64,000 bases of DNA from a virus. The stretch spans positions 25,484 to 89,483 of the IMG/VR virus record IMGVR_UViG_3300030098_005498; one strand, written 5' to 3'. Positions 594 through 36,839 of this stretch are shown here, in pieces (the stretch's first letter is position 1; every line of letters begins with the position of its first letter). The position numbers and the translations under genes were made by a program. The notes under the pieces were generated by a model. That model was not told where the DNA came from. It did no database searches and worked only from the letters and a program-made list of their open reading frames with translations.

Positions 594-622
594 ATTATAC
601 TATACAGTCTTTTGTTTGTCAA
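594..622 (-). promoter_or_regulatory. sigma70-type promoter upstream of dnaE
   Basis: Perfect TTGACA-17 nt-TATAAT on the minus strand. Confidence 0.85.
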
Positions 623-16105: not shown

Positions 16106-16271
16106 TGCTCGCCTCTTTAATCTTATGCATCAGTTTAATAATTTCCTGCCGTTTCATTGTCTTTCTTTCCTTTGATAAACTTTTTTCAAGTTTTTTTATA
16201 AGTTCAATTACAGTCATTTTTATCCTTACTATACTTACACTTAGGACATTCTTGAAATTCTTCACTTTCAA
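16089..16271 (-). CDS. small hypothetical protein between nrdA and nrdB
   Basis: Short basic ORF; start uncertain. Confidence 0.35.
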   Translation of the reverse strand: MKVKNFKNVLSVSIVRIKMTVIELIKKLEKSLSKERKTMKRQEIIKLMHKIKEASNEDNI

Positions 16272-16316
16272 ATTCGTCTGTAACCTTGTTGCATTTCGGG
16301 CAGTGCCACCAAATAG

Positions 16317-22287: not shown

Positions 22288-22767
22288 TTAAAGTGATAGA
22301 GAATAAGCTAAAGCGTTAAAATTTTTAGATACTTCAACTTTTTCAATTTCGTTTAATCTATGATTGTCTGTTCCTACTGTTGACTTAAATATAGAAACTA
22401 TACCATCTCCATATCCATCATATTTATCTTTGAGTGATCCATCAAATACGTTTTCTGTTGCTTTGATGTATACATCTCCCATTTGTTGAGCATCGCAATC
22501 GTAAGATGTTATCCTCTTGGAAAAAACATCGTTGAATATGGCTAGTCTAGTCCTATCGTCTAATTCGGTTACTTTGTCAGCAACTGGTTTTACCAATTGC
22601 TCAGTTTTATCGGTCATTGGAGATGTTAGCTCAATATCCACTTTTGGACTTACAGGTTGTGCCAACACCTCTAAAATTTGATTTCCAAATAAACCTATAA
22701 CTATAAAGGCTAGACCTAGCCAGATTCTATTACTCATTTGATTTCTCCGGTTCTGAGTCGTCATCAC
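22288..22767 (-). CDS. membrane-anchored hypothetical protein
   Basis: N-terminal TM/signal segment; the true start may be MSNRIW. Confidence 0.6.
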   Translation of the reverse strand: MMTTQNRRNQMSNRIWLGLAFIVIGLFGNQILEVLAQPVSPKVDIELTSPMTDKTEQLVKPVADKVTELDDRTRLAIFNDVFSKRITSYDCDAQQMGDVYIKATENVFDGSLKDKYDGYGDGIVSIFKSTVGTDNHRLNEIEKVEVSKNFNALAYSLSL

Positions 22768-23056
22768 TTAAGTCGTCATGGTCGTGATGCTTTACACCAA
22801 TCAATAAAGGAAATACCTCATCTAATTTTTCACAAGCCTCGTAAAGTCCAGCCTTGTGAGTTGCATCAGAAAGACACTCCCACTTACAGACTAAATCTGT
22901 AAGATCCCTATCTACAGGAGTATTATCCTTTTCTCTTTCTTTCCAAAATCTGGCGATCCACTCCCTGCCATTGGTGACAACGGGGCCACCTAGAATAAAA
23001 ACACCAATTGCAATAAGCATCCACTGAATAGGATTAATATCCGATAGAAAGTCCAT
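22730..23056 (-). CDS. membrane-anchored hypothetical protein
   Basis: N-terminal TM helix. Confidence 0.6.
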   Translation of the reverse strand: MDFLSDINPIQWMLIAIGVFILGGPVVTNGREWIARFWKEREKDNTPVDRDLTDLVCKWECLSDATHKAGLYEACEKLDEVFPLLIGVKHHDHDDLSDDDSEPEKSNE

Positions 23057-23078
23057 AATAGTTCCTCAATGTGTTTGA

Positions 23079-23270
23079 TTATTTAGTTTCTCTAACAGTG
23101 TCACCAATAACCCAAGCTACAACAATTGTAATAATACCAATTAGCTGTTCTTGATTAAGTTCAATACCAAACGCTTCAGAAGTTACAATAGAAGCCAAAG
23201 CAACTGCCGAAACCCAGAAACGTCTAGATGTCAAAAGCGATTTCAGTTTACTCATAATAATTTCTCCCAT
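23079..23270 (-). CDS. holin-like two-TM protein
   Basis: LLTSRRFWVSAV...WVIGDTVR, a typical small-holin pattern. Confidence 0.65.
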   Translation of the reverse strand: MGEIIMSKLKSLLTSRRFWVSAVALASIVTSEAFGIELNQEQLIGIITIVVAWVIGDTVRETK

Positions 23271-23279
23271 ATTTAAAAA

Positions 23280-23816
23280 TTAACGACGATGGCCAAAAAT
23301 GCGGCCAAATACACCTCTTCTTTTTCGAACTGTTCTGCTTACCCCTGTTACGGCCTTCTCTCCAGAACCTGAAGATTTAACAGTCCCTGATCATGAGCCG
23401 CCTGTCCCGCCTTGAATTTCTTTAACTTCTTCTGGATTAATTTTTATCTCTGATGGAGGATAAATCAGTTTATTTTCATTAATATCATACGTAGGGAGTT
23501 CTTGTGGATCTCCCGTATGATAAGGACAAGGTGAAACATGTCCGTCCCCCTGTACGATTTTTCCAGTACCTTTGCAAATACATTTTTCAGGATCTGGATC
23601 TGGGCCAACTGGTTGTGGGGTTGGCCGGGGTGTAACACCTAAAACTTCTTTTTCCGCCTTATGAAAACCAGCTTCTGTGTCTTTAATTATAATATCTATA
23701 TCGTCATTTGTCAACCCGTAGTTTACAGGAATTTTTTCAAATCCTGTGAAATAAGCGTATCCAAAAATAACAATAATACCTATAATAATTTTTTCTCGTG
23801 TAGTTAATTTTTGCAT
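23280..23816 (-). CDS. membrane-anchored Cys-motif protein with an in-frame UGA at 23391-23393 (possible Sec or readthrough)
   Basis: The 141-aa ORF (CICKGTG...GDG...CPYH) continues in frame past TGA for 36 codons to TAA at 23280-23282, filling the gap to the next gene. Confidence 0.6.
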
Positions 23817-23828
23817 AACATACCTCGC

Positions 23829-24764
23829 TTAAAATTGGTCATCGAAACTAGACCAGTCAATTTCTCTGGCGGGAAATCCATCTACATCACTAAAGACCCA
23901 AGCACCCCCTCCAGAAAGCATTCCACGGGCATCTTTTTCTCTAATCCAAAAAGATCCTTCTGGCTGTTCATGAACTTTTGGGCCACTATTCCAAATGCCC
24001 CAACTGTTTTGTACCAGGAACAGAGTTTCATTAAGTCTTTCTTTTGTGTCGTCACAGGCGATCCAAGCCATCGCGTGTGCCCACGAACCTGACTTTTTAG
24101 CAATGCCGTTAGAATCTCTACGAGAACTAAAACCATATCGAGAACATACAGATAAAGCGTATCCATTCGCTAATGCATCTCTAGCCTCTTCTACAGTTCT
24201 TACGTTTGAAATTGTTTTTACTTGATGTTTACTTGCTTCTGTCTTGTATACACTATCGGGGATAAGTTTTTTAGCTCCTAATCTTGAGTTATATACTGTA
24301 AGGTCTCCGTGCTCTACATTGTAGTCTTTTCTTAAAAGTATACCACCGTTTTGTGCGACATATCTAGCTGCACCTGAACACGTCATCCCCTGACCCATAT
24401 GTTCACGAGATTGATAAATTGCTTCGGTTGCGGATCGTGTTTCAAATATTTCTCTATCATCTTTGTGTAAAATTTCATAAGCACGAGTTACATCTACCGC
24501 ATTACGTGTGCTATGTGATACGCAGTCCCCATCAGTCTGCCTTTCAGATGGACCAAACCCTGGATCAAATTTTAGTAATGCTTTGAAGGGTAGACTAAGT
24601 TTCCCCTCCCCAGATCCAAATAAATCATATGCAGCAGCACCAAAAATAGGCATGGGCAATTCGCCAAGTAGTGCCTTTACATCTTCTTCATCACAAATTG
24701 CACCAACAAAACCATCTTTGTAGGCTTTCAAAGTTTGTCTAGGTGTTATAAAATTAGAGTCCAT
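23829..24764 (-). CDS. papain-like (C1) cysteine peptidase
   Basis: QTDGDCVSH (Gln/Cys), WAHAM (His), QNSWG (Asn). Confidence 0.85.
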   Translation of the reverse strand: MDSNFITPRQTLKAYKDGFVGAICDEEDVKALLGELPMPIFGAAAYDLFGSGEGKLSLPFKALLKFDPGFGPSERQTDGDCVSHSTRNAVDVTRAYEILHKDDREIFETRSATEAIYQSREHMGQGMTCSGAARYVAQNGGILLRKDYNVEHGDLTVYNSRLGAKKLIPDSVYKTEASKHQVKTISNVRTVEEARDALANGYALSVCSRYGFSSRRDSNGIAKKSGSWAHAMAWIACDDTKERLNETLFLVQNSWGIWNSGPKVHEQPEGSFWIREKDARGMLSGGGAWVFSDVDGFPAREIDWSSFDDQF

Positions 24765-34342: not shown

Positions 34343-34371
34343 ATTATAGCCTATGGTTGTACTTTTGTCAA
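34343..34371 (-). promoter_or_regulatory. sigma70-type promoter
   Basis: Perfect TTGACA-17 nt-TATAAT. Confidence 0.85.
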
Positions 34372-34945: not shown

Positions 34946-35212
34946 TGGAATGGCGAATTGGGTAACAAGGCTCGCCACACCCCGTGCTACTTACGCAGCA
35001 AGTGCAAGAGTTTCCTCTGCATTTAAAAATTTGATCTTGTTTTTAGGTAGCCTCAAGACCAACTACCACATGCAACCATTACTTCTATTTGTACGTCGAA
35101 TCTAAGTCACCCCCTTTTTTAATTTATCGAGTGGAGGTGGGGGGAATTGCACCCCCGTCCGCAGCAAATGCCTATAACAGCGTCTACATGTTTAGTTCTC
35201 CAAAAGAAGAAC
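34946..35212 (-). ncRNA. ssrA: circularly permuted (two-piece) tmRNA, tag AEETLALAA
   Basis: The acceptor piece (...CTAAACATGTAGA...GGAC-GGGGG TGCAATT CCCCC-CACCTCC-A, ending ~35132) lies upstream of the 5' GGGGGTG at 35114. G3-U wobble present; GATTCGAC D-loop analogue; tag ORF at 35020-34991; outer boundaries approximate. Confidence 0.9.
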
Positions 35213-35471: not shown

Positions 35472-36839
35472 TCAAACTATTATCTCTTCTATTGAAAATG
35501 TTTTTGCTTCCTCTCCGTTAAAGTGAAAAGGAATTTGATCTTCCAATGGAACAGAGTATTTGGCACATCTGCCACAGTTTCTATTTCCACCATTACCACC
35601 GTGGTTGGTGGCTGAATATTTTGAAATATGTTGCACCGGAGATGGGTCAAAGAACCACATAGATCTACCCATTTTGTTCATAATCCCCCCTATAGCGGTA
35701 TCGCTATTTTGGATAGTGTGTGGATTTTTTTCTCTTTCCCTTTTCTTGTTTTCCCATGCTGACTTTGTTTTTATTCTGGCACCTCTCCAGTTTTCTATCA
35801 TCGGATGTTGCATCACCTGTTCTAAAACTTTTCTCGGCCAAATAACTGCACAAGTTCCCCATAGTGCCCTTGTGGGAATATGATTCAGTCCAATAGGTCT
35901 ATAGGGTTTGCTTTTAAGATGTTGTCTTTTACTATAATGCCTGGGTGTATATAATGATACAAATCCAGTTGTGGTACAGGGCCATAAAAATTTTTCAGAA
36001 AAAGACTTTGAGTCTGGGTGGAACAATGAATCATCTTGTACTGTCATTATAATATCTGCATCACTATTGTCAAGTGCATATCTACAGCTTGATATCCAAT
36101 TCCACCAAATTCCTTTTCTTTCTTCGTGAACAATTAGGTTTTCTTTATATTCATCATTTATTTGATACACTCCAGGTTCGGCAAATATATATGGTCTCCA
36201 GCCATTTATTAGCAAAGAATCTAAACAAAGTTGCAATGTTGGTTCTTTTCTTGGTGCTGTTGTCACAGCTACAAACCAATTGTGTTTTTGCCTGCCTTCT
36301 TTTTCTTCCGCTCTTCTTATAGCCGTTTGAACCAGATTTGTACAAACCTTACGGGTAGCAAGGTCTGGAACCCATGACAAAAAACTACGTTTATTTTTTT
36401 CGTTTATTAATCTTTGCACTATGTGATGAATATTTCTCTTGCATCCTTCAATGCCCCATAAGTTCATTTTTTTTGCATAGTTTCTACAGTCGCACGACGG
36501 TTTTTCCATCCACTCTGGAATCATTTTCTTCAATTCTGTACCCGGACCTTCGCCAAAATATTCTTTTGCTTTTTCACGAACTTCTACTCTTGTCTTGTCT
36601 TTATTTGCCAATCTTGCAAATCTAATGCCTTTATTATCTGGAGATTTTTCATATCCTCCAGCGTTTTTACACAATGTACAATGAACTGTTTCAACATATA
36701 CTGTTTGTTTGTTGTTATTTAAACTCGTGGCAAATTTACAAATCATATTATTTGTTGTCGGGCATTTTGTACGCATATTACATGGAAGGTTTTCAAACTG
36801 TTGTGTTTCAACCACTCTAATATTTTTTTTGTTATCCAT
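35472..36839 (-). CDS. Cys-rich domain fused to a GT2-like glycosyltransferase domain
   Basis: GPGTELKK..CDC..MNLWG..C module; VTTAPR, TVQDD (DxD-like), PSPVQH. Confidence 0.6.
   Translation of the reverse strand: MDNKKNIRVVETQQFENLPCNMRTKCPTTNNMICKFATSLNNNKQTVYVETVHCTLCKNAGGYEKSPDNKGIRFARLANKDKTRVEVREKAKEYFGEGPGTELKKMIPEWMEKPSCDCRNYAKKMNLWGIEGCKRNIHHIVQRLINEKNKRSFLSWVPDLATRKVCTNLVQTAIRRAEEKEGRQKHNWFVAVTTAPRKEPTLQLCLDSLLINGWRPYIFAEPGVYQINDEYKENLIVHEERKGIWWNWISSCRYALDNSDADIIMTVQDDSLFHPDSKSFSEKFLWPCTTTGFVSLYTPRHYSKRQHLKSKPYRPIGLNHIPTRALWGTCAVIWPRKVLEQVMQHPMIENWRGARIKTKSAWENKKREREKNPHTIQNSDTAIGGIMNKMGRSMWFFDPSPVQHISKYSATNHGGNGGNRNCGRCAKYSVPLEDQIPFHFNGEEAKTFSIEEIIV

What the first reader, a model, noticed from the sequence alone, without database searches (positions are those of the whole stretch)
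23280..23393. In-frame UGA followed by a SECIS-like hairpin: candidate phage selenoprotein or programmed readthrough
Seen: ORF 23391..23816 ends ...GGTGGS-TGA, but the frame stays open as SGTVKSSGSGEKAVTGVSRTVRKRRGVFGRIFGHRR-TAA. This continues the Gly/Ser linker and ends 10 nt before the next ORF, in a region where intergenic gaps are otherwise small. Fifteen nt after the UGA there is a hairpin UCUUCAG-GUU-CUGGAGA whose loop starts with G, 22 nt from the UGA. Established: bacterial SECIS elements lie just 3' of the UGA with a G-led apical loop about 16-37 nt away. Inference: the phage uses host SelB/tRNA-Sec, or leaky readthrough, to make long and short forms of a membrane-anchored Cys-motif protein next to a holin-like gene and a cysteine peptidase.
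Basis: partly seen in the sequence, partly recalled or inferred. Interest (0 to 1): 0.75.

Follow-up and report, generated by a model that had tools for sequence, protein, structure and literature searches.

The report
Conserved stop splitting phage membrane protein
A group of uncultured marine phages keeps a UGA stop codon just before the ancestral membrane-binding tail of a small membrane protein, so the tail is either a recent relic or is made only by occasional read-through; selenocysteine is unlikely.

Summary
ORF 23394-23816(-) ends GGTGGS-TGA, and the frame stays open for 36 codons to TAA at 23280-23282.

New here: those 36 codons are the ancestral C-terminus of the protein family. About 100 marine-virus relatives encode core, linker and a basic-hydrophobic tail (RRGIFGGRLFGR type) in one ORF. 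A profile of their tails ranks the post-TGA frame end first of 1769 frame ends in the 89-kb record. The tail resembles the C-terminal end of E. coli MinD.

The stop is fixed in a narrow clade. It is TGA in 4 of 4 DNA versions. All 18 protein variants, on 123 contigs, end GG[TA]GGS. Contigs from four studies show no other letter there.

TGA is an ordinary stop elsewhere in this phage. The "SECIS-like" hairpin is weak (-5.6 kcal/mol), and an equivalent one follows 10.5% of positions. No Cys aligns with the stop (0 of 80). No tRNA-Sec or SelB is encoded. The tail shows no purifying selection (dN/dS 1.5 from 10 changes).

Odds:
- truncation with a relic tail and at most unprogrammed leak, about 0.5
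- selected read-through giving two isoforms, about 0.3
- selenocysteine, about 0.07

Earlier notes of this scan describe phage selenoprotein candidates on other DNA; their criteria are not met here.

The parts
23394..23816 (-). 141-codon ORF: N-terminal hydrophobic anchor, Pro-rich spacer, invariant core GPDPDPxKCICKGTGKIVQGDGHVSPCPYH, then a long clade-specific linker ending GGTGGS
   Evidence: Under purifying selection against L002 (dN/dS 0.30, Sd 10, Nd 11). No Pfam, PHROG or PDB-sequence match.
23391..23393 (-). In-frame TGA, fixed in the clade
   Evidence: TGA in the window, L002, L010 and L011. All 18 protein variants on 123 contigs end at this place. No other letter in contigs of 4 studies.
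23283..23390 (-). 36-codon tail in the same frame, with no in-frame start codon; the ancestral C-terminus of the family
   Evidence: profile of the tails of 76 relatives: 18.8 bits, rank 1 of 1769. dN/dS 1.5 against L002 and L010.
23283..23324 (-). Last 14 codons, KRRGVFGRIFGHRR: basic-hydrophobic motif like the C-terminal end of E. coli MinD
   Evidence: L002 and L010 read KRRGVLGRIFGRRR.
23280..23282 (-). TAA that ends the extended frame
23359..23375 (-). 7-pair hairpin with a GUU loop (the 'SECIS-like' element)
   Evidence: -5.6 kcal/mol, with a chance frequency of 10.5% for an equivalent hairpin. Invariant in all 4 DNA versions, so no covariation test is possible.
23327..23386 (-). Larger predicted stem (8 pairs, 23386-23379 with 23334-23327) that encloses the hairpin; not significant
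   Evidence: minimum free energy -22.4 kcal/mol for 101 nt, z = -1.18; 28 of 200 shuffles fold as well.
23829..24764 (-). 311-aa upstream gene of the cassette, papain-like by eye only
   Evidence: A homologue lies directly upstream in 78 of 83 loci with room. No Pfam, PHROG or PDB match.
23079..23255 (-).
   Evidence: A homologue lies downstream in 87 of 101 loci with room. No family match.
22730..23056 (-). 108-aa membrane-anchored protein, the next gene of the cassette
   Evidence: A homologue lies downstream in 93 of 101 loci.
23686..23714 (-). Perfect TTGACA-17-TATAAT promoter-like site inside the 141-codon ORF
   Evidence: 6 perfect sites in the window, all on the minus strand, against 0.12 expected.

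Best explanation
The TGA is a genuine termination codon that became fixed in one narrow clade of an uncultured marine phage group. It lies in the variable Gly/Ser linker of a conserved small membrane protein, just before the family's ancestral C-terminal tail. That tail is a short basic-hydrophobic motif of the kind found at the end of MinD. The main product in this clade is therefore a tail-less 141-residue protein released by RF2. The 36 codons behind the stop are a young relic of the old C-terminus that has not yet decayed. A full-length 178-residue form arises, if at all, only through ordinary unprogrammed leak at UGA. Shown: the homology of the tail, the fixation of the stop, normal use of TGA elsewhere in this phage, and the lack of visible constraint on the tail. 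Inferred: that termination dominates, and that the tail-less form is what selection keeps.
For: - The tail is the family C-terminus. 74 of 105 relatives pass a loose basic-hydrophobic end rule, and 114 of 972 control frames pass the same rule. A stricter motif is found in 29 of 105 relatives and in 1 of 972 control frames, and that one frame is this tail. The profile score is 18.8 bits, rank 1 of 1769.
- Only this clade has a stop between core and tail. Among 27 loci, only L002, L010 and L011 have it. Among 81 further loci, only L054, which lies on the same contig as L002.
- The stop is fixed. 4 of 4 DNA versions read TGA. 18 of 18 protein variants end GG[TA]GGS. No full-length variant with a sense codon appears among the 105 hits of the 5.8-billion-protein search.
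- The tail evolves as if unconstrained. Nd is 8 and Sd is 2, giving dN/dS 1.5, against 0.06-0.30 for the upstream part and 8 neighbouring genes. P(>=8 of 10 non-synonymous) is 0.026 at omega 0.3 and 0.47 at omega 1.
- Tail-less members of the family exist naturally, for example P0087-P0096, L126 and the thioredoxin fusions.
- TGA ends 16 of 69 ORFs. These include NrdA, which ends ...GCESGACAI, an ending I recall (no call) as typical of this enzyme.
- The context is CA at -2/-1 and U at +4. These are not the AA and C+4 that the review links with leaky UGA (passages of PMC7026636).
Against: - The terminal motif is intact in both lineages that could be compared. The frame has no stop or indel after 10 substitutions.
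- The first 42 nt after the TGA carry 0 changes, where 5.5 are expected at the regional synonymous rate (P = 0.004). This is a post-hoc cut, and 11.8% of comparable runs of four-fold sites are equally silent.
- GGxGGS just before the stop is invariant in 19 of 19 sequences, while residues just upstream vary. All linker indels are in frame.
- A 120-nt non-coding stretch is long for this tightly packed block, where the neighbouring gaps are 12 and 22 nt.
- The stop has never reverted in a clade that has diverged to 86% protein identity. The stop itself therefore seems to be kept, which fits a selected two-isoform design equally well.
Confidence: 0.5

Rival explanations
1. Selected stop-codon read-through. 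The UGA is kept because it sets a ratio between a major tail-less form and a minor full-length form that carries the membrane-binding tail. The UGA is decoded by a near-cognate tRNA. This would tune the amount of a membrane-active tail in what may be a lysis or envelope cassette.
For: The stop is fixed and has never reverted in 18 variants on 123 contigs. The tail motif and frame are intact in both comparable lineages. The stop is UGA, which the review calls the leakiest stop codon (passages of PMC7026636). GGxGGS before the stop and the 14 codons after it are invariant. The extended frame ends 9 nt before the next ORF. An RNA-library contig spans the stop and tail, which is weak support because DNA may be present in such libraries.
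Against: dN/dS of the tail is 1.5, from 10 changes only. No stimulatory context is present: U at +4, CA at -2/-1. No significant RNA structure was found. The local nucleotide and four-fold-site silence is within what the neighbourhood shows. No second case exists in the 89-kb record: of 5 TGA-separated open pairs on the coding strand, the other 4 are ordinary gene ends or neighbouring genes.
Confidence: 0.3
2. Selenocysteine. The UGA is decoded by host SelB and tRNA-Sec, guided by the hairpin at 23359-23375 or the larger stem 23327-23386. This would put one Sec into a linker that in many relatives is rich in Cys.
For: There is an in-frame UGA with coding sequence behind it. A hairpin with a G-led loop starts 22 nt after the UGA. 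62 of 80 tailed relatives have Cys in the linker, and the column next to the stop is Cys in 29-32 of 80. Some relatives carry a thioredoxin domain instead of the tail, a redox theme. Earlier notes of this scan report phage selenoprotein candidates elsewhere (unchecked by me).
Against: With an unbiased X at the stop, 0 of 80 relatives have Cys in its column, and the linker cannot be aligned reliably. The hairpin is weak and expected by chance at 10.5% of positions. No Rfam SECIS match was found. No covariation is visible. The UGA occurs in one narrow clade only. A lone residue in a Gly/Ser linker has no redox partner motif nearby. The 89-kb record and the 44.7-kb relative encode no tRNA-Sec or SelB. 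The host is unknown. The phage's alpha-type tmRNA points towards Alphaproteobacteria, and a preprint passage Pelagibacter genomes 'lacking selC' (10.64898/2026.04.03.716425). [quoted passage not shown]
Confidence: 0.07
3. Short ribosomal hop. Peptidyl-tRNA-Ser leaves the UCA before the stop and re-pairs with the identical UCA just after it (UCA UGA UCA). This skips the stop and keeps the frame.
For: Identical codons flank the stop in all 4 DNA versions. Take-off and landing bypass is a known mechanism (T4 gene 60; passages of PMC7026636).
Against: Ser codons are common in this Gly/Ser linker, so matching neighbours are unremarkable. No nascent-peptide or structural signal of the kind described for gene 60 was looked for or seen. 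The low efficiency of such short hops is recalled from memory, not read here.
Confidence: 0.03
4. TGA is a sense codon for this phage or its host (code 4 or 25), or it is read by a phage suppressor tRNA encoded in the missing 43% of the genome.
For: Gly at the stop would fit the Gly/Ser linker. The record is only 57% complete.
Against: TGA ends 16 of 69 ORFs of at least 80 codons, several followed at once by a second stop, and NrdA ends at its usual C-terminus. Only this one candidate exists in 89 kb. Only tRNA-Arg(TCT), tRNA-Ile(TAT) and a tmRNA are encoded.
Confidence: 0.03

Closest known systems
Bacterial selenoprotein genes with an in-ORF SECIS read by SelB (prototype E. coli fdhF; recalled, with passages of PMC7026636 and PMC12013277)
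   Same: An in-frame UGA is followed by more coding sequence, and a stem-loop lies close behind the UGA.
   Different: No Sec/Cys pair can be shown. The hairpin is weak, within chance and without covariation. The UGA is confined to one narrow clade. The site is a flexible linker, not a redox motif. No Sec machinery is visible, and the host is unknown.
Programmed UGA read-through, as in the coat and read-through proteins of RNA phage Q-beta (recalled; the title of Weiner & Weber 1973 was seen in the reference list of PMC7026636)
   Same: A UGA separates a major short product from a possible minor C-terminally extended one. The extension has no start codon of its own.
   Different: This is a dsDNA phage and a membrane protein. 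The extension is only 36 residues and is an ancestral part of the protein, not an added domain. No sign of constraint on it was found, and the context is not favourable.
C-terminal membrane-targeting sequence of MinD (the E. coli MinD end read; its membrane-binding role is recalled)
   Same: It lies at the very C-terminus. A basic pair is followed by G, two hydrophobic residues, R and L/I-F: MinD ends KKGFLKRLFGG, relatives end RRQGFLNRLFFN or RRGIFGGRLFGR, and the window reads KRRGVFGRIFGHRR.
   Different: The rest of the protein has no homology to MinD. This protein also has an N-terminal transmembrane anchor, and the side of the membrane on which the tail sits is unknown.
Genes truncated by a fixed nonsense mutation with a still-readable downstream remnant (general knowledge)
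   Same: There is a single in-frame stop. The upstream part is under purifying selection. The downstream part is recognisably homologous but evolves at roughly the neutral rate.
   Different: The stop has persisted without reversion or deletion of the remnant in a diversified, globally sampled clade of a compact phage genome.

Membership tests
Selenoprotein gene (SelB/SECIS-dependent UGA decoding) | In-frame UGA with conserved coding sequence on both sides | tested here: met
   the tail after the UGA matches the profile of the family's C-terminus (18.8 bits, rank 1 of 1769).
Selenoprotein gene (SelB/SECIS-dependent UGA decoding) | Homologues carry Cys, or UGA, at the aligned position | tested here: inconclusive
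   with X at the stop, 0 of 80 relatives have Cys in that column under three MAFFT modes (gap in 42-47, Gly in 16-19, Tyr in 10). The next column is Cys in 29-32 of 80. The linker is gap-rich and not reliably alignable. The UGA is found only in the narrow clade.
Selenoprotein gene (SelB/SECIS-dependent UGA decoding) | SECIS stem-loop just 3' of the UGA, beyond chance or with covariation | tested here: not met
   -5.6 kcal/mol, and an equivalent hairpin follows 10.5% of positions; z = -1.18; no SECIS family match up to E = 10; the stretch is invariant, so covariation cannot be assessed.
Selenoprotein gene (SelB/SECIS-dependent UGA decoding) | Host, or phage, has selA, selB, selC and selD | not testable with these tools
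   The host is unknown. The phage record has no tRNA-Sec above cut-off and no SelB, and it is only 57% complete.
Programmed stop-codon read-through | Extension under purifying selection in relatives that share the stop | tested here: not met
   dN/dS is 1.5 (Nd 8, Sd 2) between the only two lineages with DNA. Power is low, and the last 14 codons keep the motif.
Programmed stop-codon read-through | Leaky stop with a stimulatory context or downstream structure | tested here: not met
   The stop is UGA, but with U at +4 and CA at -2/-1, against the C+4 and AA named in PMC7026636. No significant structure was found.
Programmed stop-codon read-through | Both protein forms are made at a set ratio | not testable with these tools
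   This needs expression, a Western blot or mass spectrometry.
MinD-type C-terminal membrane-targeting sequence | Short basic-hydrophobic motif at the extreme C-terminus | tested here: met
   one strict pattern matches the E. coli MinD end, 29 of 105 relatives and the window's tail, but only 1 of 972 control frame ends, which is the tail itself.
MinD-type C-terminal membrane-targeting sequence | Amphipathic helix that binds membrane | not tested
Binding needs an experiment.
Alternative genetic code (TGA as sense, tables 4 or 25) | TGA in frame in many genes and rarely used as a stop | tested here: not met
   TGA ends 16 of 69 ORFs. NrdA ends at its normal C-terminus on TGA. There is only one candidate in 89 kb.

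The most novel reading that the evidence does not exclude
The clade keeps the UGA on purpose as a translational valve. Most ribosomes stop and make a tail-less protein. A set minority decode the UGA, by a near-cognate tRNA or less likely as selenocysteine, and add a MinD-like membrane-binding tail. The dose of a membrane-active end is thus controlled in a conserved peptidase-plus-membrane-protein cassette that may serve lysis. This would be programmed UGA recoding in a dsDNA phage that gates a membrane-targeting signal.
Probability: 0.35. Interest if true: 0.65.

Novelty: new member of a known kind. Interest (0 to 1): 0.38.

Why it matters
If the stop is only a truncation, the case is ordinary. 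It still gives a clean natural experiment: the family's conserved tail is dispensable in one successful, globally sampled phage clade. If read-through is selected, it would be one of few cases of programmed stop-codon read-through in a dsDNA phage, and it would gate a membrane-targeting signal. Either way, the work defines an unannotated, widespread marine-phage protein family: membrane anchor, CxCxGxG...CPxH core, variable and often Cys-rich linker, MinD-like tail. The family sits in a conserved cassette with a peptidase-like gene and small membrane proteins. No library searched here names any of them.

Tried and rejected
- **Sequencing error:** rejected.
- **Whole-genome TGA reassignment:** rejected.
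- **RNA-level conservation around the stop:** the 65-71-nt invariant block is not exceptional. Longer invariant runs of 104, 84 and 79 nt occur in the 4-way alignment, and runs up to 189 nt in the 3-way alignment. 17 of 17 silent four-fold sites is matched by 11.8% of sliding windows.
- **Rfam:** nothing but chance-level snoRNA and sRNA hits at E >= 2.3.
- **Cultured relatives:** blastn and tblastn of this region against 50,697 phage records gave no match. The helicase is at most 28.6% identical to any. The tmRNA has no match.
- **Function libraries:** Pfam, PHROGs, PDB sequences and the protein atlas gave nothing for the 141-aa protein or its three small neighbours.
- **More clade members:** a degenerate DNA pattern around the stop found 4 stretches in viral contigs. 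Three were unrelated and one was the contig of L002.
- **Host:** not resolved.
  - A 21-nt piece of the tmRNA matched 3 Gemmatimonadota MAGs exactly, which is uninformative.
  - Relatives' contigs sit in MAG bins labelled Flavobacteriales and SAR202. These labels conflict and probably reflect binning.
  - The Rfam alpha_tmRNA match is the only lineage hint.
- **Second read-through case:** the candidate at genome position 19930 is a neighbouring gene with its own ribosome-binding site and GTG start.
- **Literature:**
  - Searches for selenoprotein+bacteriophage+SECIS (30 papers, 15 listed; listing only), SAR11+selenocysteine, pelagiphage+tmRNA and bSECISearch showed no listed title or abstract on a phage-encoded selenoprotein. 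I did not open most of the papers.
  - PMC7029224 mentions selenocysteine only in a reference.
  - Supplementary files were not consulted.
Full report
**What is there**

The window is the right-hand 64 kb of an 89,483-base IMG/VR virus record judged 57% complete. It has 36.5% G+C and nearly all genes lie on the minus strand.

At 23816..23394(-) lies a 141-codon ORF that ends GGC GGC TCA TGA. The same frame then runs 36 more codons, SGTVKSSGSGEKAVTGVSRTVRKRRGVFGRIFGHRR, to TAA at 23282-23280. This stretch has no in-frame start codon, so it can only be translated by ribosomes that pass the TGA. The next listed ORF starts 9 nt after the TAA.

**The tail is the ancestral C-terminus**

A search of about 5.8 billion proteins gave 105 relatives of 97-312 residues, all from marine or aquatic metagenomes and none with a functional name. 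They share four parts:
- an N-terminal hydrophobic anchor;
- a Pro-rich spacer;
- an invariant core, GPDPDPxKCICKGTGKIVQGDGHVSPCPYH;
- a variable linker, often rich in Cys.

Most also end in a short basic-hydrophobic motif such as RRGIFGGRLFGR, RRQGFLNRLFFN or RRGLFFRR. By a loose rule, 74 of 105 end this way, but 114 of 972 control frames pass that rule too.

A stricter pattern is found in 29 of 105 relatives and in 1 of 972 stop-to-stop frames of the 89-kb record. That one frame is the post-TGA frame.

I built a profile from the last 16 residues of 76 tailed relatives, leaving out the TGA clade. It ranks the post-TGA frame end first of 1769 frame ends (18.8 bits, E 1.6e-4; the next scores 12.0 bits). 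The 36 codons are therefore the old C-terminus of this protein.

I fetched E. coli minD and read its end as ...EEEKKGFLKRLFGG. The family tail has the same pattern. That this MinD end is a membrane-targeting amphipathic helix is recalled knowledge.

**Only one narrow clade has the stop, and there it is fixed**

I translated 27 loci and 81 further loci through their stops. Core, linker and tail lie in one ORF everywhere except in the window's own clade. That clade comprises L002 (the same contig as L031 and L054), L010 and L011. All four DNA versions read TGA at the same codon. L011 breaks off 14 codons later.

The four protein clusters of the clade hold 18 distinct variants of 132-141 residues, 86-100% identical to the window's protein, on 123 contigs. 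All 18 end GG[TA]GGS. No full-length version with a sense codon appeared.

20 of the 24 listed public runs, from 6 studies, hold the stretch. I laid 4 of these 24 runs, from 4 studies. Each has a contig across 23391-23393 with no other letter there. One of the four is a metatranscriptome, which may also contain DNA.

**TGA is otherwise a normal stop**

Of 69 minus-strand ORFs of at least 80 codons, 43 end in TAA, 16 in TGA and 10 in TAG. NrdA ends ...GCESGACAI-TGA; that this is its usual C-terminus is recalled, not tested. On the coding strand of the whole record there are 5 places where a TGA separates two open stretches. The other four are ordinary gene ends or adjacent genes with their own start.

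The record encodes tRNA-Arg(TCT), tRNA-Ile(TAT) and a permuted tmRNA. It encodes no tRNA-Sec above cut-off and no SelB. The 44.7-kb relative has the same two tRNAs.

**The selenocysteine reading**

The hairpin folds at -5.6 kcal/mol. A hairpin that meets the same rule follows 10.5% of all minus-strand positions. The 60 nt from the UGA fold no better than 14.6% of windows. The 101-nt fold has z = -1.18. No Rfam SECIS model matches up to E = 10, though these models cover bacterial elements poorly, as a preprint passage notes.

The 71 nt around the stop are identical in all DNA versions, so covariation cannot be tested. Such invariant runs are common here. The silence of 17 four-fold sites is matched by 11.8% of comparable windows.

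With X at the stop, no relative has Cys in its column (0 of 80 in three alignment modes). The neighbouring column is Cys in 29-32 of 80, and 62 of 80 relatives have Cys somewhere in the linker. The linker cannot be aligned with confidence, so I call this test inconclusive. My first alignment had put the stop in a Cys column only because the tool writes U as C.

The host is unknown. The tmRNA matches Rfam's alphaproteobacterial model. Two-piece tmRNAs are known in marine phages of SAR11 and OM43 (passages of PMC9004378). A preprint's methods Pelagibacter genomes 'lacking selC'. I put selenocysteine at about 0.07.

**Is the tail still translated?**

I compared the window with L002 and with L010.
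- The upstream 141 codons give dN/dS 0.28-0.30.
- Eight neighbouring genes give 0.06-0.27.
- The 36 tail codons give 1.5 (Nd 8, Sd 2).

Eight or more non-synonymous changes out of 10 have P = 0.026 at omega 0.3 and P = 0.47 at omega 1. Ten changes in 108 nt sit close to the 14 expected at the regional synonymous divergence of 0.13. This is what a relic would show.

Against that, the changes are unevenly spread (P = 0.0008):
- none in the first 42 nt (5.5 expected);
- 7 in the next 24 nt;
- 3 in the last 42 nt, which are F to L, H to R and one silent change.

The end motif therefore survives in both lineages. No indel or stop has arisen.

GGxGGS before the stop is invariant in 19 of 19 sequences, although residues just upstream vary and carry two different in-frame deletions. 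The stop has never reverted.

The context is not favourable. The review names C at +4 and AA at -2/-1 as leaky contexts, whereas here they are U and CA.

These data cannot separate a kept truncation from a kept two-isoform design. Given how rare programmed read-through is, I put truncation with at most unprogrammed leak at 0.5 and selected read-through at 0.3. A UCA-UGA-UCA hop and a suppressor tRNA in the missing part of the genome get about 0.03 each.

**Surroundings**

The gene sits in a conserved block. Among 108 loci, not de-duplicated:
- a homologue of the 311-aa gene lies directly upstream in 78 of 83 with room;
- the 58-aa two-helix membrane protein lies downstream in 87 of 101;
- the 108-aa membrane protein lies downstream in 93 of 101.

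None of these proteins matches Pfam, PHROGs or PDB sequences. By eye the 311-aa protein has papain-like Cys, His and N-S-W-G motifs. That is a recalled pattern and was not tested. Earlier notes of this scan called the same block a possible protease-based lysis cassette. I confirmed the gene order, not the function.

Some relatives replace the linker and tail with a thioredoxin domain.

A perfect TTGACA-17-TATAAT site lies inside the ORF at 23714-23686. It is one of 6 in the window, all on the coding strand, against 0.12 expected.

**Verdict**

Selenocysteine is not supported. Read-through is possible but unproven. The most useful new facts are:
- the tail is homologous to the family's MinD-like C-terminus;
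- the stop is fixed across 18 variants;
- the tail shows no measurable constraint.

Noticed in passing
window 34987-35212 (-): Phage-encoded circularly permuted tmRNA. It matches Rfam tmRNA_permuted (105 bits) and alpha_tmRNA (64.8 bits), and ARAGORN reads the tag as AEETLALAA. Two-piece tmRNAs in marine phages are described in PMC9004378 (passages read). It has no blastn match in 50,697 phage records.
   Followed up: partly
window 594-622, 23686-23714, 34343-34371, 36046-36073, 59893-59920, 62950-62977 (all -): Six perfect TTGACA-N16-18-TATAAT sites, all on the coding strand, against 0.12 expected from shuffles. One lies inside the 141-codon ORF and could start a transcript for the downstream membrane-protein genes.
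   Followed up: partly
window 22730-24764 (-) and loci L002-L113: Conserved, unannotated cassette: a 311-aa peptidase-like gene, the CxC membrane protein, a 58-aa two-helix membrane protein and a 108-aa membrane protein. The gene order is kept in most of 108 marine viral and metagenome loci. No cultured phage has it (tblastn gave no match).
   Followed up: partly
P0100, P0102, P0103, P0106; L073, L103, L104: Some family members carry a thioredoxin domain (WCxPC) in place of the linker and tail. Many others have a CxCGCxxxGCxC-type Cys cluster in the linker. Together these hint at redox or metal chemistry.
   Followed up: no
L033/L125, L123 (CAXDOW01 MAG) and L122, L126 (VFHP01 MAG): Contigs of related phages sit in MAG bins labelled Flavobacteriales and SAR202. 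NrdA is 85-87% identical to the window's, and one lies on a 152,655-base contig. This is probably binning carry-over, and it gives no reliable host.
   Followed up: partly
window 16106-16316 (-): A 211-nt spacer lies between nrdA, which ends on TGA, and nrdB. The nrdA frame stays open for 75 Lys-rich codons after the stop. This looks like chance in AT-rich sequence, not coding.
   Followed up: partly
L114-L116: A 21-nt stretch of the 5' part of the phage tmRNA matches three Gemmatimonadota MAGs exactly. This is probably conservation of the tmRNA 5' end.
   Followed up: no
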